Shown: one piece after another, positions 6,740 through 30,157 of the stretch | Position numbering within the stretch: the stretch's first letter is position 1 | Layout of the letters: every line of letters starts with the position of its first letter | Made by a program: the position numbers and the translations under genes | The notes under the pieces: model-generated | Seen by the model: only the letters and a program-made list of their open reading frames with translations | Database searches by the model: none | What the model was told of the DNA's origin: nothing | Source: Crocosphaera subtropica ATCC 51142 | Lineage (GTDB): Bacteria > Cyanobacteriota > Cyanobacteriia > Cyanobacteriales > Microcystaceae | Direction: 5' to 3' | Assembly: GCF_000017845.1 (NCBI RefSeq) | Contig: NC_010546.1 | Location: forward strand, 1,380,001-1,412,000 | Length of the DNA: 32,000 bases

Positions 6740-7277
6740 GGGGTTCCTCCTGGGGGGTTAATTGACCGGTAAATATCGCCCAATTTTTAACCGCTTCAGC
6801 TAAGCCTTGAAAAATCAGTAAGATGTAACTAACAATAATCATAGATTTAATGGGATAACGGGGAAGTCCCCCCGGATCAGAAGACATTTCTAAAATCTTC
6901 CAAGAATTGATAATATTACCCCAAGAATAATAAATTACCATTAAACAAAAAGGAATTAAAAAGATAAAAACACCAATAAAATTAGCTAAAGCTTTTCGTT
7001 TTGGCGACCAATCTTTATAGAACAGATCAACTCTAACGTGTTCATCGTGTTTAAGGGTATAAGCAGCCCCTAAAAGAAAGACGAGATCAAACAAATACCA
7101 TTGCACTTCAATTAAGGCATTAGAAGTTAAATTTTGTCCAATCAATCTGCCCAAGTATCGCCCGACAACGTTCCAAACCCCTACAAAAATCATGAGGAGA
7201 ACTAACCAATAAGTGAATCTTCCTATCCATTCGTTGATAGTATCGATAATTTTGGCAATATTTAGTAGCTTTTGCAA
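6723..7277 (-). CDS. dctQ: TRAP transporter small permease (DctQ family)
   Basis: 184 aa protein with about 4 TM segments, immediately upstream of and overlapping dctM. TTG start (7277-7275) is preceded by GAGG about 6 nt upstream. Confidence 0.75.
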   Translation of the reverse strand: MQKLLNIAKIIDTINEWIGRFTYWLVLLMIFVGVWNVVGRYLGRLIGQNLTSNALIEVQWYLFDLVFLLGAAYTLKHDEHVRVDLFYKDWSPKRKALANFIGVFIFLIPFCLMVIYYSWGNIINSWKILEMSSDPGGLPRYPIKSMIIVSYILLIFQGLAEAVKNWAIFTGQLTPQEEPHDLNL

Positions 7278-11364: not shown

Positions 11365-12285
11365 TTATTTTCCTTTGAGAATTTTCTTAACTCGTTGCAA
11401 TACTTTTGTTTTGATTCCTGTCTCTGTTTTAATTAATTCTCCATCGTCTGGTACAGTTTCTCCGAGGTAACGATAGTGTTTCCAAATATCCCAATAAGGA
11501 CAACCTGGTTGAATTTTAATACCTGCCCAATGTAAATAATGAAGGGTTTGATTATTGCTTGGATCAATTAATTGATAACCATTTTGTTGAAAATGACTGG
11601 TTCCTGCCCAATTACCAGGGTTTTTTTCAGGTTCGTGGGCTAGATTAAACCGTTTTTCAACATTTTTTAAAATCATATAATTAATAATTGGCTGATCGGA
11701 GGTTTTATAAGTAAAGTCAAAATAGTCTATATTTTCTGCACATTCTTCAAAGATTTGATAAATTTTTTCTTCGGACATTAATCCTTTTTTTGATGCCCAA
11801 AATCCGCCGTTAAACATATCCCTAAGTTCACTTTCAGCAAAAACTTGATCATCAATTACTTTTTGAGAAAAGACATTACGAATTCCTGCTTTATGTTGAT
11901 AATCATAACAAATAAAATCATAATCTGTAAAATAATTTAAGTCATCAACTATTTTTTTGAAAACAACAATATCTGTGTCAATATAGAGAAATTCATCAAA
12001 TTCACCGAACCAACAAGCTTGTTTCCGAAATTGATTAGGACGGGCAAAAAAGTCTTCTCCAAAAATACTTTGTAATTTAATCGATAGTCTTTCAATAAAG
12101 TCTAAATCAGGATAAACAGTGACACCAAAATCTTCATTTAGTTTCTTAGCAATGATGTGATAATTATCATCATAGGGAATGAGAACAACCGGGGTATCTT
12201 TGTCATAAAATCGAATACTTTTTAATAGGGCGATCGCTTGCTCAATAACTTTATCATTAGCAGTAATATAAATACCACGGGTCAT
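11365..12285 (-). CDS. GT-A fold (GT8-like) nucleotide-sugar transferase-like protein, paralog A
   Basis: 306 aa. DxD-type motif 'FLYIDTDIVVF'. Shares collinear motifs with the upstream gene (ND.V..Q..ALL.SI / PYDDN / YD.QHK / SKK.L.SEEK / DQ..INYM / TSHF / YRY). 11 nt gap to the upstream gene. Confidence 0.55.
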   Translation of the reverse strand: MTRGIYITANDKVIEQAIALLKSIRFYDKDTPVVLIPYDDNYHIIAKKLNEDFGVTVYPDLDFIERLSIKLQSIFGEDFFARPNQFRKQACWFGEFDEFLYIDTDIVVFKKIVDDLNYFTDYDFICYDYQHKAGIRNVFSQKVIDDQVFAESELRDMFNGGFWASKKGLMSEEKIYQIFEECAENIDYFDFTYKTSDQPIINYMILKNVEKRFNLAHEPEKNPGNWAGTSHFQQNGYQLIDPSNNQTLHYLHWAGIKIQPGCPYWDIWKHYRYLGETVPDDGELIKTETGIKTKVLQRVKKILKGK

Positions 12286-12296
12286 CAGTTTTGCCT

Positions 12297-13292
12297 CTAC
12301 TTAGTTAATCCTAATTTTTTGAGAATTTTTTGTTTTAGGTTAGGCTTTTGTTGATAATATACAGCTTTTTGGTTAAATTGAGGTAATTTTTCTAGATCAT
12401 GATAATAACGATAATACAGGAATATATCTCGATAGGGAAAATCAATGTTTTCTCCTTCACATACCTTCCTAAAAATCTGTGAGGAAATACCAATATAATG
12501 AATATAGGTTAATCGATTTCCTTTATCATAAAGAATATTATTTTTATTTTCAAAATGAGAAGAGGTGACACAACATCCTGTTTTTTGATCATTAGGTAAA
12601 CTTAAAGCGAAATTATAAATAGAACAACCATGACGCATCATCATATAATTAATAACCGTTTGATCAGGTGCCATACAGTATAATATTTCTGCTTCTCCTT
12701 TTTCTAAGTAGTTGATTAATTCGTTTCTTTTCTCTTCGGAAAATAAGTCTTTTTTTGAGCCATAAAAGCCTGAGCAAAAAATTTCTGTTTTTAATCTTTC
12801 TTCTGGAAAAACTTTCGTTAACTTATTTGACTTAACATCATAAACATGGGTTAAATCTTTATGCTGAAAATCATAAATAATGCAATCATTTGTCTCTAAT
12901 TGAGCAAAAATAAACTCTAGAGGACTCATCAAAATGCTGTCAGCATCCATGTAAACAAAGCGATCAAAAGGACCATCAAAAGCACAATAACGGCGATGGG
13001 TTCCAAACCGATGATAACCCTTGCTTCCTGCTTTTTCCCAGGTTTGACGGGCTGTTGGATGGGTATCCCAAACCGCTTTAGCAAAGCTATCCCATCGCTT
13101 TATAGAAACAGAATCATCGTACAATGTGACCTGGGGACGGGATGCAATTTCTGCTGCCAACTTTTCTGTATTATCATCATAGGGATAAATACAAACAGGC
13201 ATTTTTTTGTCATAAATTGCTTCAATACTGTTCAGTAAAGCGACAATTTGATCGAAAACGTAATCATTCCCTAACGTACAAATTCCATCCAT
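12297..13292 (-). CDS. GT-A fold (GT8-like) nucleotide-sugar transferase-like protein, paralog B
   Basis: 331 aa. DxD-type motif 'FVYMDADSILM'. Paralogous to 11365-12285 (see motifs there). 21 nt gap to the upstream GT10-like gene. Confidence 0.55.
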   Translation of the reverse strand: MDGICTLGNDYVFDQIVALLNSIEAIYDKKMPVCIYPYDDNTEKLAAEIASRPQVTLYDDSVSIKRWDSFAKAVWDTHPTARQTWEKAGSKGYHRFGTHRRYCAFDGPFDRFVYMDADSILMSPLEFIFAQLETNDCIIYDFQHKDLTHVYDVKSNKLTKVFPEERLKTEIFCSGFYGSKKDLFSEEKRNELINYLEKGEAEILYCMAPDQTVINYMMMRHGCSIYNFALSLPNDQKTGCCVTSSHFENKNNILYDKGNRLTYIHYIGISSQIFRKVCEGENIDFPYRDIFLYYRYYHDLEKLPQFNQKAVYYQQKPNLKQKILKKLGLTK

Positions 13293-13313
13293 ATTTAATA
13301 ATAGTTAAACTAT

Positions 13314-14312
13314 TCAAAATTTTGTCACAAAATCAGATAACCAATTCATTAAATTAAGTTCATGAAGAATAATTTGTCTTGCTTCTGCGATCGCCGATTT
13401 TGCTTCGTGCCAAGCATCCAAACTAGCCGTCACTTCTCTGATATATTGTAATCCTTTTTCATCAAGACTCGGTAATCTTAAAAAGCTACCTGGTGGCAAT
13501 AATTTATCGGCTGCACTTCCCCCATAATAAATGGGTAAACACCAACATAACAAAGCATCCCATAATTTTTCGCTGACATACCATTCATTATCAGCATAAT
13601 TTTCAATGGATAAATTATAATAATAAGGAGCCATACCGTGCCATTTATTCTCTAAAGTGCCTTGACTATTTGTTGACTCAGGTAAATTTCTTCCATAAAG
13701 ATCAAACTCAAAATTATTATCCCTTAATAACTGTAAAAAACCCAGACGATGGCGATGATTTTCTGTGCGATTAATTCCCGATGTTATCCAACTACATCGT
13801 TTAACTTTTTCAGGAATATTGCCCTTATCTAAAAAGTCAAACTCATGGTTAATATACCAAATTGCCGGCATATAATCAGGATTGGGTGAAAAATTGTCTG
13901 GCCCTGAAACATAGCCACAATAATGACTGGCATCGTTATAATTAGCGCAGTTTCTGTTAACAACTTCTTCTAAAGGGGGTTCTCTTAATAAATACATGAT
14001 ACGCTCTTTAGGAACACCTCTGAGTAAAGAAGGAATATTAGGAGGTGAAACTTGAGAATTTCGCCATGATTTCCACCAAGGTTGAGGAGGAGAGGGTAAG
14101 GGAAAATCAAACTGATATAATAATAAAAAATCAGGATTAGGAGCATTTGCCAACATTTGAATGTTATTCCAAACGCCAAAGGCTTGAGGGGTTTGTTTCC
14201 ATAACCAATCTCGTCTATTTTGTAATCCTGAATAACTGCTTAGCATTCCAATGGTCTTTTGACTCACACAATCATTCCTCTTATTAGGTTCAGTTATCTT
14301 ATTAAGTATCAT
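13314..14312 (-). CDS. Glycosyltransferase family 10 (alpha-1,3-fucosyltransferase)-like protein
   Basis: C-terminal 'YNLSIENYADNEWYVSEKLWDALLCWCLPIYYGG' matches the GT10 motif (compare H. pylori FucT 'CFENSQGYGYVTEKI.DAYFSHTIPIYWG'). The true start may be the internal Met (MLSSYSG). Confidence 0.6.
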   Translation of the reverse strand: MILNKITEPNKRNDCVSQKTIGMLSSYSGLQNRRDWLWKQTPQAFGVWNNIQMLANAPNPDFLLLYQFDFPLPSPPQPWWKSWRNSQVSPPNIPSLLRGVPKERIMYLLREPPLEEVVNRNCANYNDASHYCGYVSGPDNFSPNPDYMPAIWYINHEFDFLDKGNIPEKVKRCSWITSGINRTENHRHRLGFLQLLRDNNFEFDLYGRNLPESTNSQGTLENKWHGMAPYYYNLSIENYADNEWYVSEKLWDALLCWCLPIYYGGSAADKLLPPGSFLRLPSLDEKGLQYIREVTASLDAWHEAKSAIAEARQIILHELNLMNWLSDFVTKF

Positions 14313-14709: not shown

Positions 14710-16122
14710 TTGAAACACAATAGACAAACATATACTTTTGACCGACGGCAAATCATCAGGCTCATCTTTCTGTCTGGAGTGATGATGGGTTTACCCCTAG
14801 CTTGTCATCGCTCAAAGACAAATATATCAAGCAAAAACCATAAGTTTGATTGGCAACAATTTGCAGGAGAAGAGATTTTCTTGTTACTCGATGATCATCC
14901 TTGGACAGAAGGACTCAAACCTTATGTATCAGATTTTGAGGCGTTAACCCATATTAAGACCAATATCAAAATAGTCCCTGAACCTGAATACTTTAAGGTG
15001 ATGGAATCTACGATTCAAGCTGAGACAGAAGAAGTTGATGCCTTTTTTTTACCGATGGATTCCACTGCCTATCGATTGTGGCGTAAAGGTCTATTGCACT
15101 CTTTAACCCCCTTGATTAATAATCCTCAATTAACCTTGTCGGATTATAATTTTTACGATTTTCCTGAGAACTTTCGGCTAGTGGGAATGTATCCCCCAGA
15201 AAGTCCTAATAGTGAATTATTTGGGATTCCTGCTACTTTTGAAGCCTATATTCTTTTTTATAATAAGATATTAATCAATCAATATTTGAATGGTCTTGTC
15301 CCCAAAACGATGACGGAACTGGTGGACGTTGCTCTCCAACTCAAGGAAATGGGAGAGGGCAAGTTTTTTGGGGCAGTTATGCGGGGAATCCCTTCAGATA
15401 CCATCATCGATACAGTTACGGGTATTCTCCTCAACCATTGGGGATCGCAGCCTTCTCCTTTACCCCATAACATCTGGTTCGATGGAGATTGGCAAAAACC
15501 ACGCTTAAGCGACCAACGAATTAGGGAAGGATTAAGAAACTATGCCAAACTAATGCAAGCAGGACCCCCTAATATTAAAGAGATGGATTGGCCTGAGGCT
15601 ACTCGTCTCTTCCGAGAAGGAAAAGCAGCCTTTTATATTGATGCGAGTCTGTTTGGACCAGACTTTGACAACCCAGAAGTATCGGACATAGCAGGAAATG
15701 TTGGTTATACGGTTTTGCCCCCTTCAGGAAAGACAAGTATGACTGGTCATTGGCTTTGGGGATTAGGGATTGCTCAAAAGTCAAAAAATCCCCAAGCGGC
15801 CTGGTTATTTATTCAATGGGCTACCAGTCAAGCCATAGAGCGCAAAATTAGCGTGGTTACTGGTGGCGCGCCTCGATTTTCATCTTGGGTTACACCTTCA
15901 GTGTACACAGAAGCCATGAATATTGATTATGCTTTAGCAGTGCAAACGGCCATGCGTACCTCCCGTCCGACGGTTGTTCTGCATTCAAATTGGAATCAAG
16001 TGGCTAAAGCCATTGCCACCACTATTCAAGAGATTTATGATGGTGCTAAGCAGGAGGTCGCTGTAGCTAAACTGCAAACCCAGATCCAGCAAATGATGGG
16101 TGGCTTCCCAGAGGATGATTAA
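14710..16122 (+). CDS. Periplasmic solute-binding protein, ABC family-1 (sugar-type), orphan
   Basis: 470 aa. N-terminus 'FDRRQIIRLIFLSGVMMGLPLAC' looks like a Tat-type signal with a lipobox-like Cys. 'AFYIDASLFGP' and 'GHWLWGLGIAQKSKNPQAAWLFIQWATS' are typical of SBP_bac_1 proteins. The TTG start directly follows an in-frame TAG. No ABC permease or ATPase gene is nearby. Confidence 0.8.
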   Translation: MKHNRQTYTFDRRQIIRLIFLSGVMMGLPLACHRSKTNISSKNHKFDWQQFAGEEIFLLLDDHPWTEGLKPYVSDFEALTHIKTNIKIVPEPEYFKVMESTIQAETEEVDAFFLPMDSTAYRLWRKGLLHSLTPLINNPQLTLSDYNFYDFPENFRLVGMYPPESPNSELFGIPATFEAYILFYNKILINQYLNGLVPKTMTELVDVALQLKEMGEGKFFGAVMRGIPSDTIIDTVTGILLNHWGSQPSPLPHNIWFDGDWQKPRLSDQRIREGLRNYAKLMQAGPPNIKEMDWPEATRLFREGKAAFYIDASLFGPDFDNPEVSDIAGNVGYTVLPPSGKTSMTGHWLWGLGIAQKSKNPQAAWLFIQWATSQAIERKISVVTGGAPRFSSWVTPSVYTEAMNIDYALAVQTAMRTSRPTVVLHSNWNQVAKAIATTIQEIYDGAKQEVAVAKLQTQIQQMMGGFPEDD

Positions 16123-19025
16123 TGTCACATAAACTGCACTGTTTGAGAACAATTCGGGGTCAACTGATGTTAGGATTTGGGGGAATTCTACTGTTGAACT
16201 TGATCAGTGCGTTTATTATTTATGGAACCTTACAACATTTTCGTTACCGCGCTCAAGCAACAATTGATTATGCCACTCGTGTGCGAGAATTAAGTCTAGA
16301 ACTAAAAAATAATTTTTTACTGGCTCGAAAAGCTGAAGATATTTTATTAGATAACTGGCAACTCAAAAAAGTAAGTCCAGCGATTCAAAACGCCATCAAT
16401 AACCAAGAAAATTATCTAAACCAAGCTCGTCAAAACCTTTCTGCTATCCAAACCCTACAGAAACAAAACTCAGATATTGAAGCAGAACTGACCATACTTC
16501 AATCCTTATTTACTAACTATGAATCTGCGTTTCAAGGAACGGCTAAGCGAATTATTGCTCACGATGAAGGATACCAACTCCATCAACAACTGCAAATTCT
16601 CATCAACCAGTTCGTTAATGACAGAACCCTGGCAAGAAATCGGACCATTGAGAGTCTTCTGTGGACAGCGATCGCAGAACAACAGAAATATTTTCAAACT
16701 AACAAACAAGGTTCTCCTACGGATTTACGGGCTAGTCTCGACCAACTAGAAACTGCTTTAAAAGCCCATCAAAGCAAGACACCGATTCACACCTTAGCCC
16801 AGGACTATACGACGACCCTGGATACTCTTTTATTATTAGAGCAACAAGTTTTATTTAATCAGATTGTTGCAGAAAATATTAATAAGGAAATTGATCACAT
16901 TATCGAGGTGATTGGCCAAAAGAGTAAAACCCAAGCAGAGCAAGCCCGTTTAGGCTTAATACAAACCGCTAATTACACTCGTATCGGTCTATTAATCACA
17001 GTTATTACGGCATTAGCCCTGACCTTGTGGGTAAGTTTATGGCTTGGAAAAACCATTGTTCAGCCGTTAACCCAATTAACAGACGTTTCAGAACACATTG
17101 CCAAGGGGTCTTTAGAGGAAACATTGAACTTTTCGGCCAGTAATGAATTTGGCATTGTGGCCACTGCCCTCAATAAAATGCTCATTCAATTGAGAGAAAC
17201 CTTAGCAGACCTTGAAGACAGGGTGAGAGAAAGAACCCAGGCATTAGAGGCTAAAACCGAATCTCTCGAAATTACTCTTAAAAAATTGCGTTTCAGTCAA
17301 GCTAATTATCATCAACTGATTAATAATCTTCAGGCCGGGGTGATTATCTATGACCCTAGGGGTAACATGATGATGGCTAACTTAGCAGCTTCAGAATTAT
17401 TGGACATATCCTCTGAAAGTTTATCTCTCTATTCTTCTCCAGAAGCAAGGGTAACCTTCGTTGACGAGTCAGGAGCAACACTTCCCCCACAAGAGCATCC
17501 TTGCCAACAAGTTTTGACCACCCAAGTCCCATTACACAATTATGTCATGGGTATTCACCGACAACGGCCCCTAGACTCTATTTGGACGTTAGTGAATGCG
17601 TTTCCTGCTTTTGATGATCAGAACCATTTAACTCAGGTAGTGGTACTCCTTCTTGATATCACTGATCGTAAGTTAGCTGAGGAACAGTTGCGCTATCGTG
17701 CGCTCCATGACGCTTTAACAGGGTTGCCTAACCGTACCCTCCTCACAGAACGGTTAGACCATGCTATCCAACGGGTTAAACGTTACCCTGACAGTCTCTT
17801 TGCGGTGTTATTTATTGATTTAGACCGTTTCAAAGTGATTAACGATAGTTTAGGCCATTTAGTCGGTGATCAACTGCTCATATACATTGCTAATACCCTA
17901 AAACGCCATGTTCGTAGTAGTGATACGGTGGCACGACTGGGAGGGGATGAATTTGTCATTCTTCTGGAGAATTTGACCAGTCCCCATGAAGTGGTACAGG
18001 TGATTGAACGAATTGAAAAAGATATTAAAAAGCCCATTCAGTTGATGAATAAAACTCTTTTTACCTCGGCCAGTATTGGCATTGCGTTGAGCAGTCCAGA
18101 GTATGGTACTGGAGAAGATATTTTGCGGGATGCTGATAACGCTATGTATCGGGCTAAAGGTAATAATCTCACAAGTTACGAACTGTTTAATGTGGAAATG
18201 CGTCAGACAATGTTAGAAGTCTTTGAGCTTGAAACGAGTTTGCGACAAGCATTAGAACAGCAACAATTTATCTTGCATTATCAACCGATTGTTTCTGCTA
18301 CGTCTTTGGAATTATTGGGGTTTGAAGCTTTAGTGCGTTGGGTACATCCTGAAAAGGGGTTGATTTCTCCAGGAAAGTTTATTCCGTTGGCCGAAGAAAC
18401 AGGATTAATTATTCCCTTAAGTGAATGGATTTTCCAAGAAGCTTGTAGTCAGATGGCACAGTGGTGCGCTGATTTTCGGATGGCTAGTTCCCTAAAAATG
18501 AGTATTAATATTGCTGCTTATCATTTTCAATCCCCTCAATTTTTGGAAAAAATAGACCAAATTTTAACTGAAACTCAGTTACTGGGAAAGAATCTGAAAT
18601 TAGAGATAACAGAAAGTTTGCTGATTAAAAATACCGATAGATTCCTGTCTCTTGTGCCTCAGTTACAACAACGGCAAATTGAAATTAGTCTTGATGATTT
18701 TGGGACAGGTTATTCTTCTTTGAATTACTTAAAACGGTTTCCCATTAATACTCTTAAAATTGATAAATCTTTCGTTGATGGTCTTGATTATCAGAAAAAT
18801 CAAGCAGATGTTAGTATTATTGAGGCTATTATCCATATTGCTCAATCCCTAGGCATGGATGTCGTGGCTGAAGGGGTTGAAACAGATCGGCAACGTCAAC
18901 AGTTACAACAGTTGGGATGCGAAGCAATTCAAGGATATTTAATGTCTCCTCCTTTAACTTCTGAGAAGGCTAGAGAATTTATTAATCGTCAGTTATCAGT
19001 AACCAGTGATCAGTCTCATACTTAA
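16122..19025 (+). CDS. Membrane sensor protein with periplasmic helical domain, HAMP, PAS, GGDEF and EAL domains
   Basis: 967 aa. TM1 at about aa 17-36, a helical periplasmic region of about 250 aa, TM2 at about aa 285-308, then HAMP. PAS ('LQAGVIIYDPRGNMMMANLAASELLD'). Intact GGDEF (aa 607-611, nt 17940-17954) with upstream 'DALTGLPNR'. Intact EAL (aa 735-737, nt 18324-18332) plus 'DDFGTGYSSL', 'KIDKSF', 'EGVET', 'QGYL'. The ATG overlaps the SBP stop (TAATG). Confidence 0.92.
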   Translation: MSHKLHCLRTIRGQLMLGFGGILLLNLISAFIIYGTLQHFRYRAQATIDYATRVRELSLELKNNFLLARKAEDILLDNWQLKKVSPAIQNAINNQENYLNQARQNLSAIQTLQKQNSDIEAELTILQSLFTNYESAFQGTAKRIIAHDEGYQLHQQLQILINQFVNDRTLARNRTIESLLWTAIAEQQKYFQTNKQGSPTDLRASLDQLETALKAHQSKTPIHTLAQDYTTTLDTLLLLEQQVLFNQIVAENINKEIDHIIEVIGQKSKTQAEQARLGLIQTANYTRIGLLITVITALALTLWVSLWLGKTIVQPLTQLTDVSEHIAKGSLEETLNFSASNEFGIVATALNKMLIQLRETLADLEDRVRERTQALEAKTESLEITLKKLRFSQANYHQLINNLQAGVIIYDPRGNMMMANLAASELLDISSESLSLYSSPEARVTFVDESGATLPPQEHPCQQVLTTQVPLHNYVMGIHRQRPLDSIWTLVNAFPAFDDQNHLTQVVVLLLDITDRKLAEEQLRYRALHDALTGLPNRTLLTERLDHAIQRVKRYPDSLFAVLFIDLDRFKVINDSLGHLVGDQLLIYIANTLKRHVRSSDTVARLGGDEFVILLENLTSPHEVVQVIERIEKDIKKPIQLMNKTLFTSASIGIALSSPEYGTGEDILRDADNAMYRAKGNNLTSYELFNVEMRQTMLEVFELETSLRQALEQQQFILHYQPIVSATSLELLGFEALVRWVHPEKGLISPGKFIPLAEETGLIIPLSEWIFQEACSQMAQWCADFRMASSLKMSINIAAYHFQSPQFLEKIDQILTETQLLGKNLKLEITESLLIKNTDRFLSLVPQLQQRQIEISLDDFGTGYSSLNYLKRFPINTLKIDKSFVDGLDYQKNQADVSIIEAIIHIAQSLGMDVVAEGVETDRQRQQLQQLGCEAIQGYLMSPPLTSEKAREFINRQLSVTSDQSHT
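18990..19017 (+). repeat. STRR-like heptamer tandem repeat (CAGTNNN x4)
   Basis: cagttat cagtaac cagtgat cagtctc. Overlaps the last 12 codons of the GGDEF-EAL ORF (tail ...RQLSVTSDQSHT*). Confidence 0.6.
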
Positions 19026-19133: not shown

Positions 19134-21329
19134 TTAATTAATCCCCAAATCAATATGTTGATCTTTAAAACTAATTACTCTTTCCCCAATTATAACTTGA
19201 GAATCTAAGTGATTATTGATAATTTTTAGGTTGGGAATCTTATTTTTTTCAACTGTCATCACCACAAAAAAGTCTCCTGTTCCTGTTGCAATAATTCTTT
19301 GATTATCTTTTTCATAGTTTAAGTTGATCGTTTCAGGAGTAATAAAAGTTCCTTTCATCGTGACATCCCGATCTCGTTTAATTAGAAAAGTATTATTTTC
19401 AATAGTGACATTTCCTTCAGTATTCATGACCCAAGTATGATTATTTTTATGATCATCAAATTGATCAACAATAGCAAATAAACCAGGAACCCCTGAAATA
19501 TTAGAGTAATCAACAGCAAAGGATCTTAACCAATCTTTAGCTTGTAAACTAACAACACCTGAACCATCTTTTTTATCTTTCAAATAAATAGTTGTCATTG
19601 TTATTGCATTAGGATTTTCTTGAATAATAATATTTTCATTTTCCGGTTTATTATTACTTTCCCCTGCGATCGCCCAATTTTCCCCTAGTCCCCAAATGCG
19701 AAAACTTCCAGCATCGGGGAATGACCAAGACTTCGTTAAATATTCTCGTTTTCCATAGATACTCGCCACAAAATCATTTTTGTCTTTCCATTGATTACGA
19801 AAAGAATAAAATCCTTTTTGTTCATCTACTAAAACGTTATCAAAAATCTGGGAAGGATGTTTAATAACTAAATGATTGGGATAATTAATAAATAAAAAAA
19901 CACCATCTAAAATATTCTTAATACCAAAACTTTGGTTTCCATTTTCTCCCCAATAATGATCAAATCCCCACATAATACCAGGCAAAAACTTAAGGGGAAC
20001 TAATCCCATTCCCATGGCAAATAATGATCCCCCTGAATAATATCGATGTCTTCCATAACTAGGAATCGGATAACTATTCTTTCTTGGAACAATTCGCATT
20101 AAATACTGAGGTAATAACCAAGCTAAATTAGAATTTTCAGTGGCAAAATTTTTTCCTTTCACATGATAGTAACCTGTAAAAAAAGGAAACAAGGTTAAGA
20201 TAAATGGTTCAGTGGTATAGTGATCCCCTTCCGTACCAAACCCCTTGTCACCCATCGCTGTTTCTAGATAGCGAATCATGTTGCGCTTAGCAATGGTTAA
20301 AAGTTGTTCAATATTGATATCTGGGGAAAAATAGCCTTCTGGTTCTTTTAAAATGGCTAATGCAGCCAATCCTGCAGCCCCTCTTGCTCTGGCATTCCAA
20401 TTACTCCAGGCTGTGGGGTTCCAACCTCTATCTGGGGTTCCTTCGATTAATAATTGTGTTTGTTGAGCCAGCCAATTAGAGACAAGAATGCGATTATTAT
20501 TCTCCCAATAAGCGTAACATAAATCATAAGCGATCGCTATTCCTGTGACCACTGGGGACAGTTCAAATAAGCGACGATAGGAGGTATTAATCGCCTTTTC
20601 TACCACTGTCCAAGCCTGAGCAGCTTGTTTGGGTTTTTCTTTAATTAAAGCGAGAAAACATTGTCCTGCTGCGTGATATCCTGCATTGGGAACATAGCCA
20701 TCATAAATAACAGGTTGATTGAGTGTTTTTTCTAATTTATTAAATATTTTTTTGCCAATTTTTGTTGTTATTTTTTGACGTAATTCTGGCACCCTTGTCT
20801 CTCGAAATAGTAACCGAGGATGTTCTTGAGGGTGAATCGGTCGATGATCTATCAAAGGTTGAGGGTATAGTGGATTGATGGTTCCAGAAACTTTTCCTTG
20901 TAATACTTTATTGTTAAATTTTCCTTGATAATTTCCGATTAAAAGATTATTATTTTTTTTAATTAATTCAATTTCATAATTAGCCTTTCCTGACAATGAT
21001 AACCAAGGGTCCCGATTGATGAGTAAATCAACGTCTAAAATCCACTGATTATGGGATTGATTGATAGTAACAGTTCCTTGATGTTCTGCTTGATTAAACT
21101 CAGGAGCAAACCCCCAAATCTCAGAAGTACAATGATTATTTTCACAAATTACATCTAGGGTAATATCTTGATAATCAATTTCGTTATTAGAGTTTCTCCA
21201 AAGGGCTTTTTCTAGAACGATGCTAACTTTTCCTGACAAAGAATGAAAGGAGAAAGTGGGGGTATAAACTCCCAACCCTACCCAATAAATTGTCATGATT
21301 ATTATGATAAATAATCGAGATTTAATCAT
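19134..21329 (-). CDS. Heparinase II/III / alginate-lyase-like (alpha/alpha toroid + beta-sandwich) protein with N-terminal signal or anchor
   Basis: 731 aa. Hydrophobic N-terminus 'LFIIIIMTIYWVGLGVY', then a beta-rich region of about 130 aa. 'HPRLLFRETRVPELRQKI', 'SNWNARARGAAGLAALAI' and 'GTEGDHYTTEP' resemble heparinase II/III-DUF4962 signatures recalled from memory. The ATG overlaps the upstream stop (ATGA). Confidence 0.55.
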   Translation of the reverse strand: MIKSRLFIIIIMTIYWVGLGVYTPTFSFHSLSGKVSIVLEKALWRNSNNEIDYQDITLDVICENNHCTSEIWGFAPEFNQAEHQGTVTINQSHNQWILDVDLLINRDPWLSLSGKANYEIELIKKNNNLLIGNYQGKFNNKVLQGKVSGTINPLYPQPLIDHRPIHPQEHPRLLFRETRVPELRQKITTKIGKKIFNKLEKTLNQPVIYDGYVPNAGYHAAGQCFLALIKEKPKQAAQAWTVVEKAINTSYRRLFELSPVVTGIAIAYDLCYAYWENNNRILVSNWLAQQTQLLIEGTPDRGWNPTAWSNWNARARGAAGLAALAILKEPEGYFSPDINIEQLLTIAKRNMIRYLETAMGDKGFGTEGDHYTTEPFILTLFPFFTGYYHVKGKNFATENSNLAWLLPQYLMRIVPRKNSYPIPSYGRHRYYSGGSLFAMGMGLVPLKFLPGIMWGFDHYWGENGNQSFGIKNILDGVFLFINYPNHLVIKHPSQIFDNVLVDEQKGFYSFRNQWKDKNDFVASIYGKREYLTKSWSFPDAGSFRIWGLGENWAIAGESNNKPENENIIIQENPNAITMTTIYLKDKKDGSGVVSLQAKDWLRSFAVDYSNISGVPGLFAIVDQFDDHKNNHTWVMNTEGNVTIENNTFLIKRDRDVTMKGTFITPETINLNYEKDNQRIIATGTGDFFVVMTVEKNKIPNLKIINNHLDSQVIIGERVISFKDQHIDLGIN

Positions 21330-23515
21330 GAAACGAAAATAAAATGATGACTGTTTAAATCTAAATTGGTTGCATTTTTTACAATACCAATTAATTCATC
21401 TTCCATGCCAGCAACTTTGAGAAAAATTCCTTGATCATTAGCTTTAAAGGGAGAAGAACCCAGATAGTAGTTATTAGCTGTGCCATGTAATTGAATTATA
21501 TCTTGAGCCATATCAAAATCAACAATTTCTGCATAATCTTGTTGTCCATAGTTATCATAAAACGATTCACTTTCATTTCCTAGAGCATAAATCTTTCCAT
21601 TGATAGTCTGAGTTTGAGAATGACTCAATCCCGTTAAAGGATCAACAGCAGATCCATTGAAGTTACCATTTCCTTCTATAGCTAAGAAATTGATATTTTC
21701 AGTCGTATGATTGGTTTCACTGTCGTTGCTAGTATCTTCTTCAACCATGATTTGAACATTGCCATTAGTGAGGTTTTTATATCTTAATCCTGAAGGATCG
21801 GGACCATCAAAAGTGGCAATATTGCCTAAGAATTTAGGAGCATTGCTGAAATGATTGCCAAAATCAATACTATGCCAGTTATGGGTAACCTTATCTCCAG
21901 TATTACCTGCTATAAACCCCTTACCATCCCAATTTCCTTGACCGGGAGAAATCGCTAACCAAGCAATAGTTTCTGAACCATGTCCAGTGAACTTAAATGC
22001 TTCTTCTTCTTCTAAAGCCACTTCAAATCCATGATTAGTGGCATTCTTTTGACGGGTTCGCACAAAGGTTGGATCATTATCGGTTTGAACTTGAGTTAAA
22101 ACCACAGGGGTATTAGTAAAGTTGTGATTGAAGTTAATCGTTTCCCAAGTTGAGGTGGTGGTTGCATCTGTTGTGACGTTGCCTACCTCGATAATTGTGC
22201 CATCAGACAGTTCCCATCGTCCCTGTTCAACCACTAAAAAACTAAACCTTTCTGTTGTATGGTAACCATTATGAGATTTACCCCTAATTAAAGTTGTCTC
22301 TTGAAGTTGCACGGTAAAGCGATCGCTTTGAATATCGGTAATTCTTATGGTCGAAGGATCTGGACCATTATAGGATAAGGGTTGAGCAAAAATAACAGGG
22401 TTAATAAAGTTATGATTCAGGGAAATGGTTTGACTTTCATGGTTTAAATTAGTAATTTGTCCAATTTCGGCAATGACAGCATTATTATCAATAGGAGTGT
22501 CTTCAACTGCGTCTTTGAGTTCAATTGATGATGTGTCGATAGCTTCTGAAGAAGCTGACATTTCTAAGATGGCGTTCCCTAATTTTTCGATGTTTAATAA
22601 TTTCCCTTCGTATTGGGGTTGATTAACAACATTGTCCCCTTGTGCAAGTAACTCTCTAATCCCCAGTTTAATAACTTCCCCTGTGGTTTCATCAATAATG
22701 CTGTTTAGGGGTAATTTGTATCCCAACTCTTGCACCGCTAACTGTTGCGCTACGGCGATCGCTCCAGTCACATGGGGAGCAGACATACTGGTTCCTGATA
22801 GGGTCGTCGTTCCTCCATTATTATTAGCTGCTGTAATACCCACCCCAGGAGCAAAAACGTCAGTTAAATCAGGATGATGTTGGGAAAAACTAGCAATTTC
22901 ACCTTTATTATTAACAGCAGAAACCGCTAAAGAATTGATACTTGCTGCTGGATAGGAAACGCCATCTTCTCCTGTATTACCCGCAGCAGAAACCACAATC
23001 ACATCATTATTAACTAACGCTTGTAACTCATCATCAATGATATTGCCAAAAAACCAGGGAGATTGATAGTTCCGTCCATTACTAAGGGACATATTCACAC
23101 TAGCAATATTATAGGTATCATGGTTATCCACCACCCATTGTAAAGCCTGTTCAATATCATAAAGATTGGCTTTATTATTATTATCAAAAACTTTGAGAGC
23201 AATAATGTTAACCCCAGGTGCTATCCCTGTATAGGTCGGATCGCTTGAAGCAGCAATGCTGGCCACATGACTTCCATGCCTATTAGGATCACTAGCATTA
23301 TTATCATCATTACTGGTAGGATCGCTAAAATTTTCTAATGGAGTAGAAGCAAAATCATAATGGTAAACAATCCGATCCGCTACATTATTCTTATCAAGAT
23401 CAGGACCAAAAAAAGGATGGTTTAAATCTATTCCCGTGTCTATAATGACGACAGCATAGCCAGATCCATCAATACGCTTGCCGTTATTATCGAAAAAAAC
23501 ATCATAATTAGTCAT
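21326..23515 (-). CDS. S8 family (subtilisin-like) serine peptidase with three tandem lectin-like repeats and a cyanobacterial C-terminal module
   Basis: Catalytic triad motifs: 'VVIIDTGID' (Asp26), 'HGSHVAS' (His80), 'AAGN' (Asn180), 'GTSMSAPHVTG' (Ser243). Three repeats of about 90 aa lie at aa ~350-615. The C-terminus is 'DIIQLHGTANNYYLGSSPF...GIFL...DELIGIVKN'. No signal peptide or propeptide. Confidence 0.88.
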   Translation of the reverse strand: MTNYDVFFDNNGKRIDGSGYAVVIIDTGIDLNHPFFGPDLDKNNVADRIVYHYDFASTPLENFSDPTSNDDNNASDPNRHGSHVASIAASSDPTYTGIAPGVNIIALKVFDNNNKANLYDIEQALQWVVDNHDTYNIASVNMSLSNGRNYQSPWFFGNIIDDELQALVNNDVIVVSAAGNTGEDGVSYPAASINSLAVSAVNNKGEIASFSQHHPDLTDVFAPGVGITAANNNGGTTTLSGTSMSAPHVTGAIAVAQQLAVQELGYKLPLNSIIDETTGEVIKLGIRELLAQGDNVVNQPQYEGKLLNIEKLGNAILEMSASSEAIDTSSIELKDAVEDTPIDNNAVIAEIGQITNLNHESQTISLNHNFINPVIFAQPLSYNGPDPSTIRITDIQSDRFTVQLQETTLIRGKSHNGYHTTERFSFLVVEQGRWELSDGTIIEVGNVTTDATTTSTWETINFNHNFTNTPVVLTQVQTDNDPTFVRTRQKNATNHGFEVALEEEEAFKFTGHGSETIAWLAISPGQGNWDGKGFIAGNTGDKVTHNWHSIDFGNHFSNAPKFLGNIATFDGPDPSGLRYKNLTNGNVQIMVEEDTSNDSETNHTTENINFLAIEGNGNFNGSAVDPLTGLSHSQTQTINGKIYALGNESESFYDNYGQQDYAEIVDFDMAQDIIQLHGTANNYYLGSSPFKANDQGIFLKVAGMEDELIGIVKNATNLDLNSHHFIFVS

Positions 23516-25792: not shown

Positions 25793-27595
25793 TTAATCAC
25801 AAAGATATCTTTGATATCCATAACCATCGATATATGGATATTTTTTTGTATCAATTTCACAATTATTTAATTCAACTTCTGCATTAAAGTTGACTGTCCA
25901 AACTTCTAGGGGTTTAGCTAAATTATTAACTGCTTCTTGGAGATTTTTAGTTGATTGCGGATCATTATTTTTTGTTTGATTAATCAATAAGAAAGAAATA
26001 TCATCTAATTCATTTTGATTATTTTGTTGAAATACACCTTCTGCCTCCTTTAACTCTAATGCTATTCCCATCATTTCTCCTATTTGCACCAAACTTTTAT
26101 GGGTAGTAGCAATCAGAACAGGTTGAGATGAATGTTCTTTAATCACTGAGATAAATTGTTCGGGACGATAATATTTTTGATACCCTAAATTAACAAGAAC
26201 TGTGACGGCACCGATAAACCCCATAAACCAAACAGCATAAAAAGCTAATTGACCATTACTGTTTAATTTATCATACAATTTTCTGAGTAAAATTAGGGGA
26301 TTAATTGTTTCTTTTGCTTGCAATTGTCTATTTTCTGGTTTAATTTCATGCCATAAAATCCCTAAACTTGCTCCCACGAGAACGATAACAGCAGGAAAGT
26401 AAGTAAAACTATAACGGGCTGCACGGGTTAAGTCAACGCCGATCACATAAGTAATGATAAGAAATAAAGCAATAACTCCACTGATAAATGTCATTAAAAT
26501 TAATAGGGAAAGACGAAATTGATTGAACTGTAATCCCTTTTTAATCCCTCGAATACTATAAGGGATGAACCAAATAAAGAATAATAGTAGGAGCAAACCA
26601 GAAAGAATAACAATAGCAATAGAATCAGATTCAACTGGTAATAAAGAAATCATAGGAACCCAAACCGCTAATAATTGGAATGGGGGACTAATGGCATACA
26701 AAATATGACTCAAAGGATGAATCCAAGTGATCATATTGTTACCGTAACCTTGAGGAATTACTAAAAACATCCAAACTAACCCTGTAGTTGATGTTCCTAA
26801 AATAACGGCGAAAACACGGATTAAATTTCGTTTATTGAATTGTAAAAAATTGTGTTTAAATTTAGCGTAAATAAGAATAGCTAAAGTGATAGCTTCTGCC
26901 ATGAGGGTTAAAACAAAAAAATAATGAACCGATAACCCAAAACTATTAACCAATATCCAGGTAATAACTAACCATAAAGGAATAATTGATTGTTCATAAA
27001 GATGTCTAACGACAATAATTAAACAGAGTAAAGAAGCAATAACAAATAAAATAGCTAATGTATAGTGACGGGCTTCTTGTGCCAAAAAAATCCCAAAAGG
27101 AGAAACCGCCATTAAAGCTGCGCTAATTTGTCCCACTAAACGAGAACGAAAGGCAATTTTTCCTAAAAAATAGACCCCCGGAATGGATAAAATACCTAAA
27201 AAAGCCGGAAGCGATCGCATAACCCAAACATCTGCATATTCCCCCATATTAGGAAATAATTTAACCCACAAATGAACTAAAACAAAATACAAAGGAGGAT
27301 GATTATCTTCCTGTAACAACAAAGAAACAACATCCTTTATCCCTGCGTCCCCATTAATACGAAGCGGTTGCAAAAGGGTATCCAATGAAATAACCTGATT
27401 CAGAGGAACTGAGCGAAAATCATTTCCTAAACTAAACACCATTGTGGCAAATTCGTCAGTCCAAGGGGGTTTAGCGGCCAAATTTGTAAAGCGGAGAAGA
27501 CCACCAATAATTACCCACACACTTAATAATACCCAATCATTGACCTGGGATAACTGGTTTATCCACTGTTTAGAAGACGATTGAAGTTTTAACAC
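25793..27595 (-). CDS. GT-C fold glycosyltransferase (family 39 / ArnT-PMT-like) with C-terminal soluble domain
   Basis: 600 aa with about 11-13 TM segments. The first extracytoplasmic loop carries the acidic 'PPWTDEFAT' motif, followed by 'DNHPPLYFVLVHLW', as in ArnT/PMT-type enzymes. GTG start at 27595-27593. Confidence 0.7.
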   Translation of the reverse strand: MLKLQSSSKQWINQLSQVNDWVLLSVWVIIGGLLRFTNLAAKPPWTDEFATMVFSLGNDFRSVPLNQVISLDTLLQPLRINGDAGIKDVVSLLLQEDNHPPLYFVLVHLWVKLFPNMGEYADVWVMRSLPAFLGILSIPGVYFLGKIAFRSRLVGQISAALMAVSPFGIFLAQEARHYTLAILFVIASLLCLIIVVRHLYEQSIIPLWLVITWILVNSFGLSVHYFFVLTLMAEAITLAILIYAKFKHNFLQFNKRNLIRVFAVILGTSTTGLVWMFLVIPQGYGNNMITWIHPLSHILYAISPPFQLLAVWVPMISLLPVESDSIAIVILSGLLLLLFFIWFIPYSIRGIKKGLQFNQFRLSLLILMTFISGVIALFLIITYVIGVDLTRAARYSFTYFPAVIVLVGASLGILWHEIKPENRQLQAKETINPLILLRKLYDKLNSNGQLAFYAVWFMGFIGAVTVLVNLGYQKYYRPEQFISVIKEHSSQPVLIATTHKSLVQIGEMMGIALELKEAEGVFQQNNQNELDDISFLLINQTKNNDPQSTKNLQEAVNNLAKPLEVWTVNFNAEVELNNCEIDTKKYPYIDGYGYQRYLCD

Positions 27596-29571: not shown

Positions 29572-30150
29572 ATGCAAACCATACAAACTCCCCAACAACT
29601 TCGTCTATGGACTGTTAAAGAATATCATTATCTCACTAAAATCGGGGTATTGCATCCAACGGAAAAATTAGAATTATTAGAAGGACAAATTGTTCGTATG
29701 GCAGCTAAAGGAACTTCTCATACAGTTGCAACAAGACGAACTGCGAAACTGTTAGAAAATTTGCTAAATAATCAAGCTGCTATTTATACGCAAGATCCCA
29801 TTACTTTAAATGATTATTCAGAACCTGAACCCGATATTATTGTGGTGATTCCTGACTCCTTAGATTATTTTGAACATCATCCAAAACCTTCAGATATTCA
29901 TTTAATTATTGAAGTTGCTGATAGTAGTTTAGAGTATGATTTAACCATCAAATCTGAAGCTTATGCTAAGTCAAATATTAAAGAGTATTGGGTATTAGAT
30001 GTTAATGAAAGACAGTTACACATTTTTCGTCAACCCACTTCAGAAGGATATAAAAATTGCTTTATCTTAACAGAAGAAGAAGAGATTAATTTATCACACT
30101 TTTCTCAGATTCGTTTATCAATTCAAGCTATGTTACCACCCAAAATCTAA
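29572..30150 (+). CDS. Uma2-family (DUF820) PD-(D/E)xK endonuclease-like protein
   Basis: 192 aa. 'WTVKEYHYLTKIGVL', 'ELLEGQIV', 'EPEPDIIVV', 'IIEVADSSLEYDLTIKSEAYAKSNIKEYWVLD' give the typical Uma2 motif order. Confidence 0.8.
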   Translation: MQTIQTPQQLRLWTVKEYHYLTKIGVLHPTEKLELLEGQIVRMAAKGTSHTVATRRTAKLLENLLNNQAAIYTQDPITLNDYSEPEPDIIVVIPDSLDYFEHHPKPSDIHLIIEVADSSLEYDLTIKSEAYAKSNIKEYWVLDVNERQLHIFRQPTSEGYKNCFILTEEEEINLSHFSQIRLSIQAMLPPKI

Positions 30151-30157
30151 AGAAAAC

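What the first reader, a model, noticed from the sequence alone, without database searches (positions are those of the whole stretch)
19134..23515. Two-gene operon: leaderless S8 subtilase with lectin-like repeats coupled (ATGA overlap) to a heparinase II/III-like protein
The subtilase stop and the lyase-like start overlap (ATGA at 21326-21329), which implies co-translation. A serine protease with carbohydrate-binding-like repeats paired with a signal-anchored polysaccharide-lyase-like protein is an unusual combination. It points to a dedicated machine for cutting a glycoprotein or proteoglycan-like surface polymer such as sheath, S-layer glycan or EPS-associated protein. It converges on the SBP/c-di-GMP pair. 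Products released by these enzymes are plausible ligands for that sensor.
Basis: partly seen in the sequence, partly recalled or inferred. Interest (0 to 1): 0.68.

Follow-up and report, generated by a model that had tools for sequence, protein, structure and literature searches.

The report
Secreted protease coupled to lyase-like protein
A marine cyanobacterium (Crocosphaera/Cyanothece) carries a gene for a sugar-binding secreted protease fused end-to-start to a gene for a protein shaped like a polysaccharide-cutting enzyme that lacks two of that enzyme's usual catalytic residues; the pair is real but restricted to one genus, and its function is still unproven.

Summary
Two minus-strand ORFs, an S8 subtilase (21326-23515, 729 aa) and a 731-aa ORF (19134-21329), overlap by ATGA. 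The subtilase has an intact catalytic triad, no signal peptide or propeptide, three H-type-lectin-like repeats, and a C-terminal RTX-like beta-roll domain homologous to the CylK N-domain. This is the layout of a type-I-secreted exoprotease. The 731-aa protein has no Pfam hit. Its AlphaFold model (pLDDT 91) shows an N-terminal hydrophobic helix, a beta-sandwich, an alpha/alpha toroid and a second beta-sandwich. It matches PL15, PL21, PL39, PL35, PL17 and PL12 lyases at Foldseek E down to 2e-19. Compared with canonical lyases it keeps the Asn and Tyr, but Trp replaces both catalytic His positions in all 120 cyanobacterial homologues, so lyase chemistry is unproven. The pairing occurs in 12 Crocosphaera genomes only, with stop/start overlap in 10. 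More than 70 other cyanobacterial loci with the lyase-like gene, and two subtilase orthologues examined elsewhere, lack the partner. In four Crocosphaera genomes the pair is followed directly by three glycosyltransferase-like genes. The SBP/c-di-GMP pair is a lineage-specific insertion into that block, so the proposed sensor link is not supported. Verdict: a genus-specific surface-glycan cluster containing a new variant of a known fold. Interest is moderate.

The parts
21326..23515 (-). S8 subtilase, 729 aa. It comprises the catalytic domain (res 17-321; D26, H80, N180, S243), a linker (322-344), three H-type-lectin-like repeats (345-626) and an RTX-like beta-roll C-terminal domain (about 640-729, ending FIFVS). 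It has no signal peptide or propeptide.
   Evidence: triad invariant in 25 homologues; AF2 model; subtilisin fold, E 3e-19; repeats; C-terminal domain matches CylK N-domain, E 2e-14.
21621..22482 (-). Coding region for the three tandem repeats of about 90 aa (H-type-lectin-like, residues 345-626 plus flanks) of the subtilase.
   Evidence: Pairwise local alignments give z 9.6-12.7 against shuffles. Pfam H_lectin scores 26.2 bits on the isolated region. Pfam H_lectin (PF09458) is precomputed for orthologues and is strong in P0166 (E 2e-13).
21329..21601 (-). Coding region for the C-terminal domain of about 90 aa (Ca-binding beta-roll/RTX-like, putative type-I secretion and folding module).
   Evidence: Profile A5 matches CylK residues 152-239 in the PDB at E 2e-14. 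That CylK domain is described as RTX-like and resembling the C-terminal domains of secreted serralysins and lipases (PMC8916777). The domain is retained even where the lectin module is swapped (P0173, P0176).
21326..21329 (-). ATGA stop/start overlap that couples the two genes.
   Evidence: Overlapping junctions are conserved in 10 orthologous loci.
19134..21329 (-). 731-aa polysaccharide-lyase-fold protein. It comprises an N-terminal hydrophobic helix (2-18), a beta-sandwich (33-152, conserved C62/C67), an alpha/alpha toroid (177-482) and a beta-sandwich (499-730). Key sites are HPRL 170-173, N310-W311, E367/Y371 and W535.
   Evidence: pLDDT 91, pTM 0.90; Foldseek; family of 1840 representatives; active-site census.
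11365..14312 (-). Three glycosyltransferase-like genes on the same strand: one GT10-like (13314-14312) and two Npun_R2821/R2822-family genes (12297-13292 and 11365-12285). In related genomes they follow the lyase-like gene directly.
   Evidence: Pfam Glyco_transf_10 E 7e-11 and Mannosyl_trans3 E 2e-5. NCBIfam NF045582 scores 448 and 335 bits against a cut-off of 250. They lie directly downstream in L003, L006, L007 and L008 and in L082.
14710..19025 (+). SBP_bac_1 gene plus HAMP-PAS-GGDEF-EAL gene, convergent with the pair. This is a lineage-specific insertion between the lyase-like gene and the GT genes and is not part of the conserved unit.
   Evidence: domains. Present in the window, L001, L002 and L021. 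Absent in L003, L006, L007 and L008. Replaced by an Ank gene in L082. Its GC content is higher (40-43 %) than that of its neighbours.

Best explanation
The finding is the front end of a glycan-related gene block specific to the genus Crocosphaera/Cyanothece. The ancestral order is subtilase, lyase-fold protein, GT10-like gene, then two Npun_R2821/2-family transferase-like genes.

Gene 1 is a catalytically competent S8 protease. It lacks any N-terminal signal. It carries three H-type-lectin-like repeats and a C-terminal Ca-binding beta-roll (RTX-like) domain. It is most likely exported in one step by a type I secretion system, folds outside the cell, and is targeted to a carbohydrate-bearing surface or EPS by its lectin repeats.

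Gene 2 is translated by coupling to gene 1 through a stop/start overlap. It is a Sec-targeted, probably membrane-anchored or periplasmic/exported member of a large uncharacterised family with no Pfam model. The family has the toroid plus beta-sandwich fold of PL15, PL17 and PL21 lyases. The protein keeps the substrate-neutralising Asn (N310) and the catalytic Tyr (Y371), but conserved Trp residues (W311, W535) stand where canonical lyases have His. It probably binds an acidic polysaccharide in the usual cleft. It then either cleaves it by a Tyr-only (syn) elimination or acts non-lytically.

Together the two proteins most plausibly remodel or turn over a cell-surface or EPS glycoconjugate made with the adjacent transferases.

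Shown: gene structure, domains, fold, active-site substitutions, synteny. Inferred: secretion routes, substrate, joint function.
For: - Gene structure: ORFs and ATGA overlap. The overlap is conserved in 10 of 12 Crocosphaera loci, and adjacency is kept in all 12. This includes loci where the subtilase's middle module is exchanged (L082, L007) and where the flanking genes differ.
- Subtilase catalytic domain: S8 triad and oxyanion Asn are invariant, and the fold is subtilisin-like.
- Subtilase export signals: there is no upstream coding extension. The C-terminal domain is homologous to the CylK Ca-binding beta-roll at E 2e-14, and that domain resembles the RTX domains of T1SS-secreted serralysins and lipases (PMC8916777).
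- Module sharing: the same lectin-plus-CTD module, at about 70 % identity, is found on M10/matrixin, Calx-beta and beta-helix proteins. The lectin repeats also occur on an RTX-repeat protein and on CAP and cellulase fusions that lack the CTD. Related S8 domains carry HemolysinCabind repeats.
- Lectin repeats: supported.
- Lyase fold: AF2 pLDDT 91. Foldseek hits are PL15 2e-19, HepII 4e-19, then PL39, PL35, DS-epimerase, PL33, PL17 and PL12. Profile against the PDB gives HepII 6e-5 with three collinear segments.
- Active-site bridge: distant relatives read PWSNHNGIR, EGxFYK and G-CH. Their profile aligns N-H and EGxxY to PL17 8bdd (E 2e-7). All 120 cyanobacterial homologues have N-W, Y and W at those positions.
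Against: - No experiment or transcript data were available.
- The two proteins are predicted to use different export routes, so they may not meet in the same compartment.
- No T1SS ABC or MFP genes and no canonical GGxGxD repeats are present in the window or the protein.
- Both catalytic His positions are lost, so lyase activity may be absent.
- The residue equivalences rest on profile and motif alignments, not on a 3D superposition. hhalign against HepII alone was ambiguous in the middle of the protein.
- Synteny is limited to closely related genomes (64-80 % identity) and could partly reflect shared ancestry rather than selection.
- The hep-GT linkage is interrupted by insertions in several genomes.
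- The wider family sits next to housekeeping genes, with no glycan context.
Confidence: 0.5

Rival explanations
1. First reader's model. A canonical heparinase/alginate-lyase-type beta-eliminase and a protease jointly degrade a proteoglycan-like polymer, and the released products are sensed by the adjacent SBP and GGDEF-EAL pair.
For: Lyase fold. The SBP and GGDEF-EAL genes are convergent and adjacent in the window and in L001, L002 and L021.
Against: Both catalytic His positions are Trp. The protein has no Pfam Hepar_II_III or DUF4962 hit. The SBP/GGDEF pair is absent in L003, L006, L007 and L008 and is replaced by an Ank gene in L082. Its GC content differs from that of its neighbours.
Confidence: 0.1
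2. The 731-aa protein is a non-lytic derivative of a lyase. It could be a polysaccharide-binding or chaperoning protein, or an enzyme with other chemistry such as a C5-epimerase like DS-epimerase or a hydrolase. In this view the Trp residues stack on sugar rings, and the protease is only co-expressed with it.
For: Trp at both His positions is strictly conserved in 120 cyanobacterial homologues, and many relatives have Tyr or Trp there. DS-epimerase 6hzn is among the structural neighbours. The Zn-ligand positions of HepII appear to be lost (manual motif alignment).
Against: Asn310, Tyr371, Glu367 and Arg511 remain nearly universal across the family. In several PL families Tyr alone can act as both base and acid (established knowledge of PL5 and PL8 mechanisms).
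Confidence: 0.25
3. Enzyme-substrate or maturation pair. The subtilase processes the lyase-fold protein, for example by releasing it from its N-terminal anchor or removing the N-terminal beta-sandwich, or the reverse.
For: Tight translational coupling. Subtilases are often encoded beside their substrates; the weak NCBIfam similarities to mycosin and PatA-type proteases all fall below their cut-offs.
Against: The wider lyase-fold family exists without any protease neighbour. The two proteins are predicted to use different export routes. The lectin repeats point to a glycan target.
Confidence: 0.08
4. There is no functional link. A mobile secreted-protease gene was inserted upstream of a paralogue of a core cyanobacterial gene in the Crocosphaera ancestor, and the pair persists through inheritance.
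For: The pairing is found in one genus only. Other synteny (DXS) is conserved in the same genomes. The C-terminal modules of this protease family are visibly shuffled.
Against: The stop/start overlap is maintained through changes of stop codon and through module swaps. The pair stays together where both flanks have changed (L007, L082).
Confidence: 0.15

Closest known systems
PL15, PL17 and PL21 polysaccharide lyases (Atu3025 oligo-alginate lyase 3A0O; PL17 8BDD; heparinase II 3E7J)
   Same: The domain order is shared: a small N-terminal beta domain, an (alpha/alpha) toroid, then an antiparallel beta-sandwich. Also shared are the HPRL motif at the toroid entry, the AYDxCY helix, the Asn of the N-H motif and the EGxxY Tyr motif.
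   Different: Sequence identity is 11-14 %, and there is no Pfam hit to Hepar_II_III or DUF4962. Trp replaces the His of the N-H motif, and Trp also occupies the beta-sandwich His position; this second equivalence comes from motif alignment only. The HepII Zn ligands also seem to be absent. An extra 120-aa N-terminal beta-sandwich with a conserved Cys pair and a hydrophobic N-terminal helix are present.
AlgL-type accessory lyases encoded inside exopolysaccharide biosynthesis operons (comparison from general knowledge)
   Same: A toroid-fold, lyase-like, exported protein is encoded next to glycosyltransferase genes.
   Different: No polymerase or exporter genes are adjacent. The fold class is the multidomain PL15/17/21 type rather than PL5. 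Activity is unproven.
Type-I-secreted serralysin or lipase-type exoenzymes with C-terminal RTX beta-roll; CylK N-terminal domain (7RON)
   Same: There is no N-terminal signal. The catalytic domain is followed by a C-terminal Ca-binding beta-roll-like domain (E 2e-14 to CylK residues 152-239). The protein ends in a hydrophobic tail (FIFV).
   Different: The catalytic domain is S8, not M10. There are no canonical GGxGxD nonapeptide repeats (no HemolysinCabind hit). No neighbouring ABC or MFP genes were found. Three lectin repeats are inserted between the catalytic domain and the beta-roll domain.
H-type lectin domain proteins (Helix pomatia agglutinin, discoidin; Pfam PF09458)
   Same: The repeats are about 90-aa beta domains. 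Pfam H_lectin scores just above the gathering score on the isolated region and is strong in the relative P0166.
   Different: The repeats are arranged as a tandem triple within one chain and fused to a protease. Sugar-binding residues and specificity were not tested.

Membership tests
Peptidase S8 (subtilase) | Pfam Peptidase_S8 score above the gathering score | tested here: met
   141.8 bits against 21.8, E 3.7e-41, residues 17-260.
Peptidase S8 (subtilase) | Catalytic triad in Asp-His-Ser order plus the oxyanion Asn | tested here: met
   D26 (DTGID), H80 (HGSH), N180 (AAGN) and S243 (GTSMSAP) are invariant in the 25-sequence alignment. The model matches subtilisins with a target-normalised TM-score of about 0.8.
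H-type lectin domain (PF09458) | Profile match above the gathering score | tested here: inconclusive
   21.9 bits on the whole protein (below 24) and 26.2 bits on the isolated repeat region. Only the middle repeat matches directly. The other two repeats are linked to it by internal similarity (z 9.6-12.7). Orthologues carry precomputed Pfam H_lectin (PF09458) hits.
H-type lectin domain (PF09458) | GalNAc or other carbohydrate binding | not testable with these tools
   This needs a glycan array or ITC.
Polysaccharide lyases with (alpha/alpha) toroid plus beta-sandwich (PL12/15/17/21 type, 'heparinase II/III-like') | Overall fold | tested here: met
   AF2 pLDDT 91, pTM 0.90. Foldseek E 2e-19 to 3A0O, 4e-19 to 3E7J, and probability 1.0 for 48 lyase and epimerase chains.
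Polysaccharide lyases with (alpha/alpha) toroid plus beta-sandwich (PL12/15/17/21 type, 'heparinase II/III-like') | Sequence-family membership (Pfam Hepar_II_III, DUF4962, Alginate_lyase; NCBIfam HepB) | tested here: not met
   No Pfam hit at E <= 0.1. NCBIfam HepB scores 21.9 bits against a cut-off of 600. Ten distant relatives also have no Pfam hit.
Polysaccharide lyases with (alpha/alpha) toroid plus beta-sandwich (PL12/15/17/21 type, 'heparinase II/III-like') | Asn-His pair on the toroid (charge neutraliser and base) | tested here: not met
   The Asn is present (N310), but the His position is W311 in all 120 cyanobacterial homologues. Relatives with N-H align to the PL17 N-H motif.
Polysaccharide lyases with (alpha/alpha) toroid plus beta-sandwich (PL12/15/17/21 type, 'heparinase II/III-like') | Catalytic Tyr | tested here: met
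   Y371 in EGDHY is conserved in 21 of 27 sequences and in nearly all 270 family members. It aligns to the PL17 motif EGAYY through the bridge profile. The equivalence comes from profile alignment, not from 3D superposition.
Polysaccharide lyases with (alpha/alpha) toroid plus beta-sandwich (PL12/15/17/21 type, 'heparinase II/III-like') | His from the beta-sandwich domain (HepII H406) and Zn ligands | tested here: inconclusive
   Motif alignment of NHQHQDAGAFQIYYKG (HepII) with SWSFPDAGSFRIWGLG (this protein) puts W535 at the H406 position and F537 at the H408 position. About 20 relatives have His at position 535. hhalign did not reproduce this pairing.
Polysaccharide lyases with (alpha/alpha) toroid plus beta-sandwich (PL12/15/17/21 type, 'heparinase II/III-like') | Beta-elimination activity on a uronic-acid polymer | not testable with these tools
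   This needs an enzyme assay.
Type I secretion substrates (RTX-type exoproteins) | No N-terminal signal peptide, and a C-terminal beta-roll or secretion domain | tested here: met
   The ORF cannot be extended upstream. The C-terminal domain matches the CylK beta-roll domain at E 2e-14, which is described as RTX-like.
Type I secretion substrates (RTX-type exoproteins) | Canonical GGxGxD nonapeptide repeats (Pfam HemolysinCabind) | tested here: not met
   This protein has no HemolysinCabind hit. The repeats are present in S8 relatives and in P0166, which shares only the lectin repeats.
Type I secretion substrates (RTX-type exoproteins) | Cognate ABC transporter and MFP genes nearby | tested here: not met
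   None is present among the window ORFs that were scanned. They could be encoded elsewhere in the genome.
Translationally coupled operon | Stop/start overlap conserved in orthologous loci | tested here: met
   ATGA, TAATG or TGATG in 10 loci. L006 and L007 instead have spacers of 125-200 nt.
Translationally coupled operon | A single transcript | not tested
   No transcript data were available here. Promoter and terminator scans were at background level.

The most novel reading that the evidence does not exclude
The 731-aa protein represents a large, unnamed protein family: 1840 representative clusters at 50 % identity, no Pfam model, and every named member found is labelled 'hypothetical'. 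The family descends from N-H/Y/H polysaccharide lyases. In its cyanobacterial branch, both catalytic histidines have been replaced by strictly conserved tryptophans. This would create either a new lyase mechanism (Tyr-only, with Trp-clamped substrate) or a new non-lytic activity on cyanobacterial surface polysaccharide. In Crocosphaera this protein would then have been recruited, together with a lectin-targeted type-I-secreted protease and three transferases, into a dedicated system for remodelling EPS or a surface glycoprotein, relevant to aggregation and TEP formation by this marine N2 fixer.
Probability: 0.2. Interest if true: 0.7.

Novelty: new variant of a known kind. Interest (0 to 1): 0.42.

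Why it matters
Crocosphaera and Cyanothece are major marine nitrogen fixers. Their abundant acidic exopolymers drive particle aggregation and carbon export, yet no enzymes that remodel these polymers are known. The lyase-fold protein belongs to a widespread family that is conserved in cyanobacteria and has no annotation. Its active site is altered in a consistent way (His to Trp at two positions). Determining its activity would annotate well over a thousand sequence clusters and could define a new CAZy-type family or a pseudo-lyase. The pairing with a protease is genus-restricted, so it is mainly a useful handle (co-expression, knockouts) and not a general principle.

Tried and rejected
- Single-sequence searches of the 731-aa protein were essentially empty. 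Pfam gave nothing. NCBIfam gave only HepB at 22 bits. phmmer against the PDB gave E 0.28.
- hhalign of the family profile against heparinase II alone, in both global and local modes, gave an unreliable middle section and did not fix the catalytic residues. I replaced it with a census across distant relatives and a bridge profile that hit PL17.
- I looked for a conserved partner gene across 80 loci of the wider family. None was found; neighbours are lineage-specific housekeeping genes.
- I checked whether subtilase orthologues outside Crocosphaera sit near a lyase-like gene. They do not. A nearby 733-aa ORF in Hydrococcus is unrelated.
- Foldseek of the whole subtilase model returned only subtilisins and gave no information on the C-terminal modules.
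- Pfam and NCBIfam found nothing for the C-terminal 90 aa. The PDB profile search was what identified it.
- Literature searches found nothing relevant. These covered heparinase or subtilisin in Cyanothece/Crocosphaera and the locus tags Npun_R2821-2823.
- Promoter and terminator scans were at background level.
- The idea of a link to c-di-GMP sensing was rejected on synteny grounds.

Full report
**Observation.** The window carries two minus-strand ORFs. One is 729 aa (21326..23515) and the other is 731 aa (19134..21329). The plus-strand TCAT at 21326-21329 reads ATGA on the coding strand, so the start codon of the second gene overlaps the stop codon of the first. The public annotation starts the second protein at Met12 (P0001, 720 aa). 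In ten orthologous loci, however, the first Met, the M-x-K-x-R n-region and an overlapping junction (ATGA, TAATG or TGATG) are conserved, and Met12 is not. The window's own contig is 4,934,271 bp, and the closest homologues are from Crocosphaera/Cyanothece. The source is therefore almost certainly Crocosphaera subtropica (Cyanothece) ATCC 51142 or a near-identical strain.

**The protease.** Pfam gives Peptidase_S8 at E 4e-41. D26, H80, N180 and S243 are invariant in a 25-sequence alignment, and the model superposes on subtilisins. The ORF begins at the first start codon after a stop, and the catalytic Asp is at residue 26. There is therefore neither a signal peptide nor an I9 propeptide.

After a low-confidence linker, the model shows three beta domains and a final beta-rich domain. 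The three domains (residues 345-626) are tandem repeats (z 9.6-12.7 against shuffles). The isolated region passes the Pfam H_lectin gathering score (26.2 against 24 bits); the whole protein scores just below it (21.9).

A profile of the last 90 residues matches residues 152-239 of CylK at E 2e-14. This lies in the N-terminal Ca-binding beta-roll domain of CylK. Its crystallographers describe that domain as RTX-like and as resembling the C-terminal domains that drive secretion and Ca-dependent folding of serralysins and lipases (PMC8916777).

The same lectin-plus-CTD module occurs, at about 70 % identity, on matrixin/M10, Calx-beta and beta-helix proteins of Crocosphaera. The lectin repeats without the CTD occur on an RTX-repeat protein and on CAP and cellulase fusions from other taxa. 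Related S8 domains carry HemolysinCabind repeats. Where the lectin module is swapped for another repeat (P0173, P0176), the C-terminal domain is still kept. The 'leaderless' state is thus the normal layout of a type-I-secreted exoenzyme. This is an inference: the protein has no canonical GGxGxD repeats, and no ABC or MFP genes lie in the window.

**The 731-aa protein: fold.** It has no Pfam hit. The only NCBIfam match is HepB at 22 bits, far below the cut-off. A 30-sequence profile hits heparinase II in the PDB at E 6e-5, with three collinear segments, and a PL35 chondroitinase at 0.012.

The AlphaFold model is confident (pLDDT 91, pTM 0.90). It shows:
- helix 2-18;
- a beta-sandwich at 33-152;
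- an alpha/alpha toroid at 177-482;
- a beta-sandwich at 499-730.

Foldseek returns PL15 Atu3025 (2e-19), heparinase II (4e-19), PL39, PL35, exoHep, dermatan-sulfate epimerase, PL33, PL17 and PL12, all at 11-14 % identity.

**The 731-aa protein: family.** An exhaustive profile search finds 1840 representative clusters at E <= 1e-3, of which 578 are at <= 1e-30. Many are long forms with an insertion of about 200 aa. Ten distant members have no Pfam hit, and the few that carry a source name are called 'hypothetical'. This is a large unnamed family.

**The 731-aa protein: active site.** I verified the heparinase II sequence against PDB 3E80 and took a census of key columns over about 270 family members. 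All 120 cyanobacterial homologues read N310-W311, Y371 and W535. Among 150 diverse representatives, 24 read N-H at 310/311 and about 20 have His at position 535. Eleven have the full N-H/Y/H set, with the motifs PWSNHNGIR, EGxFYK and G-CH. A profile of those eleven hits a PL17 alginate lyase (8BDD, E 2e-7). It aligns N-H to the PL17 N-H and EGxFY to the PL17 EGAYY.

The window protein therefore keeps the neutralising Asn and the Tyr, but has conserved Trp at the His of the N-H motif. By motif alignment only, it also has Trp at the beta-sandwich His (HepII H406), and the Zn ligands appear to be lost. hhalign against HepII alone did not resolve these positions, and I could not superpose coordinates. 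Whether the protein is a Tyr-only lyase, a binding protein or an enzyme with other chemistry remains open.

**Synteny.** I fetched 80 genomic loci encoding relatives of the 731-aa protein. Only the Crocosphaera/Cyanothece orthologues (64-80 % identity) have the subtilase immediately upstream. Together with XPORK-15E, that makes 12 genomes. Ten have overlapping stop and start codons, and two (L006, L007) have spacers of 125-200 nt.

The pairing survives replacement of the subtilase's middle module (L082, L007) and changes in both flanks. The other 70 or so loci (40-50 % identity, including the second paralogue cce_3968 and Rippkaea PCC 8801) have lineage-specific housekeeping neighbours and no protease. 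Subtilase orthologues with the same architecture in a Nostocales MAG and in Hydrococcus have no lyase-like neighbour.

In L003, L006, L007 and L008 the lyase-like gene is followed directly, on the same strand, by a GT10-like gene. In L003 and L006, where the fetched sequence extends far enough, two Npun_R2821/R2822-family genes follow it. In the window and in L001, L002 and L021, a convergent SBP plus HAMP-PAS-GGDEF-EAL pair sits between the lyase-like gene and these GT genes. In XPORK-15E an ankyrin gene sits there instead. The SBP/GGDEF segment also has higher GC content than its neighbours. The c-di-GMP pair is therefore an insertion and not a conserved partner. The conserved unit is subtilase, lyase-fold protein and three transferase-like genes.

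**Interpretation.** The best-supported reading is a genus-specific cluster for a surface or extracellular glycoconjugate. It comprises a lectin-targeted, type-I-secreted protease, an exported lyase-fold protein with a modified cleft, and transferases. The mechanism beyond domain level is inferred.

The rivals are:
- a canonical lyase feeding the c-di-GMP sensor (weak);
- a non-lytic derivative (plausible);
- a protease-substrate pair;
- adjacency without function.

One N-H/Y/H relative lies directly after an MFS transporter and near SDR and GFO_IDH oxidoreductase genes. This hints at an ancestral role in sugar-acid catabolism, but it is a single example.

**Novelty and score.** The protease is an ordinary member of a known kind with a well-understood layout. 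The lyase-fold protein is a new variant of a known fold, in an unannotated family. The pairing is real but narrow. I found no literature on this family or gene pair. Interest is moderate at 0.42. It would rise if the Trp-for-His cleft proves to have a new activity.

Noticed in passing
window 14710-19025: The SBP_bac_1 gene and the HAMP-PAS-GGDEF-EAL gene overlap by one base (both ORFs include position 16122). They form an insertion that is present in only some Crocosphaera genomes, between the lyase-like gene and the GT genes. Their GC content is higher (40-43 %) than that of their neighbours (31-37 %).
   Followed up: partly
window 11365-14312 (minus strand): Three tandem transferase-like genes: one GT10 (fucosyltransferase-like) and two Npun_R2821/R2822-family proteins (NCBIfam NF045582). 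I found no literature on that family.
   Followed up: partly
window 21297-21329: The public gene call for the 731-aa protein appears to start at Met12 (720 aa). Conservation of the first 11 codons and of the junction in orthologues indicates that the upstream ATG is the real start.
   Followed up: yes
window 21329-21601 (subtilase residues about 640-729): This C-terminal domain is clearly homologous (E 2e-14) to part of the N-terminal Ca-binding domain of the cylindrocyclophane alkylating enzyme CylK. Pfam and NCBIfam have no model for it. It seems to be a cyanobacterial RTX-like capping or secretion module shared by many exoproteins.
   Followed up: partly
family of the 731-aa protein (P0245, P0247, P0248 and others): Many relatives are 950-1050 aa long, with an insertion of about 200 aa splitting the toroid (profile positions about 334 and 340). 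Others reach 1300-1500 aa. The nature of the insertion is unknown.
   Followed up: no
L087 4701-8247: A distant relative with the full N-H/Y/H motif set (P0283) lies 35 nt downstream of an MFS transporter gene. SDR and GFO_IDH oxidoreductase genes, and a Kelch/FGE-sulfatase-domain gene, are nearby. This looks like a sugar-acid utilisation context.
   Followed up: no
window 29572-30799: Two adjacent, oppositely oriented Uma2-family (putative restriction endonuclease-like) genes.
   Followed up: no
window 25793-27595 (minus strand): A 600-aa polytopic membrane protein with no Pfam or NCBIfam hit. By eye it resembles ArnT/PMT-type glycosyltransferases. It lies between dxs and a sodium:solute symporter gene, and it is conserved next to dxs in L021.
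   Followed up: no
window 5393-7277 (minus strand): TRAP transporter DctM and DctQ genes with overlapping ORFs. The adjacent downstream ORF that was scanned is an HrcA homologue, not a DctP binding-protein gene.
   Followed up: no
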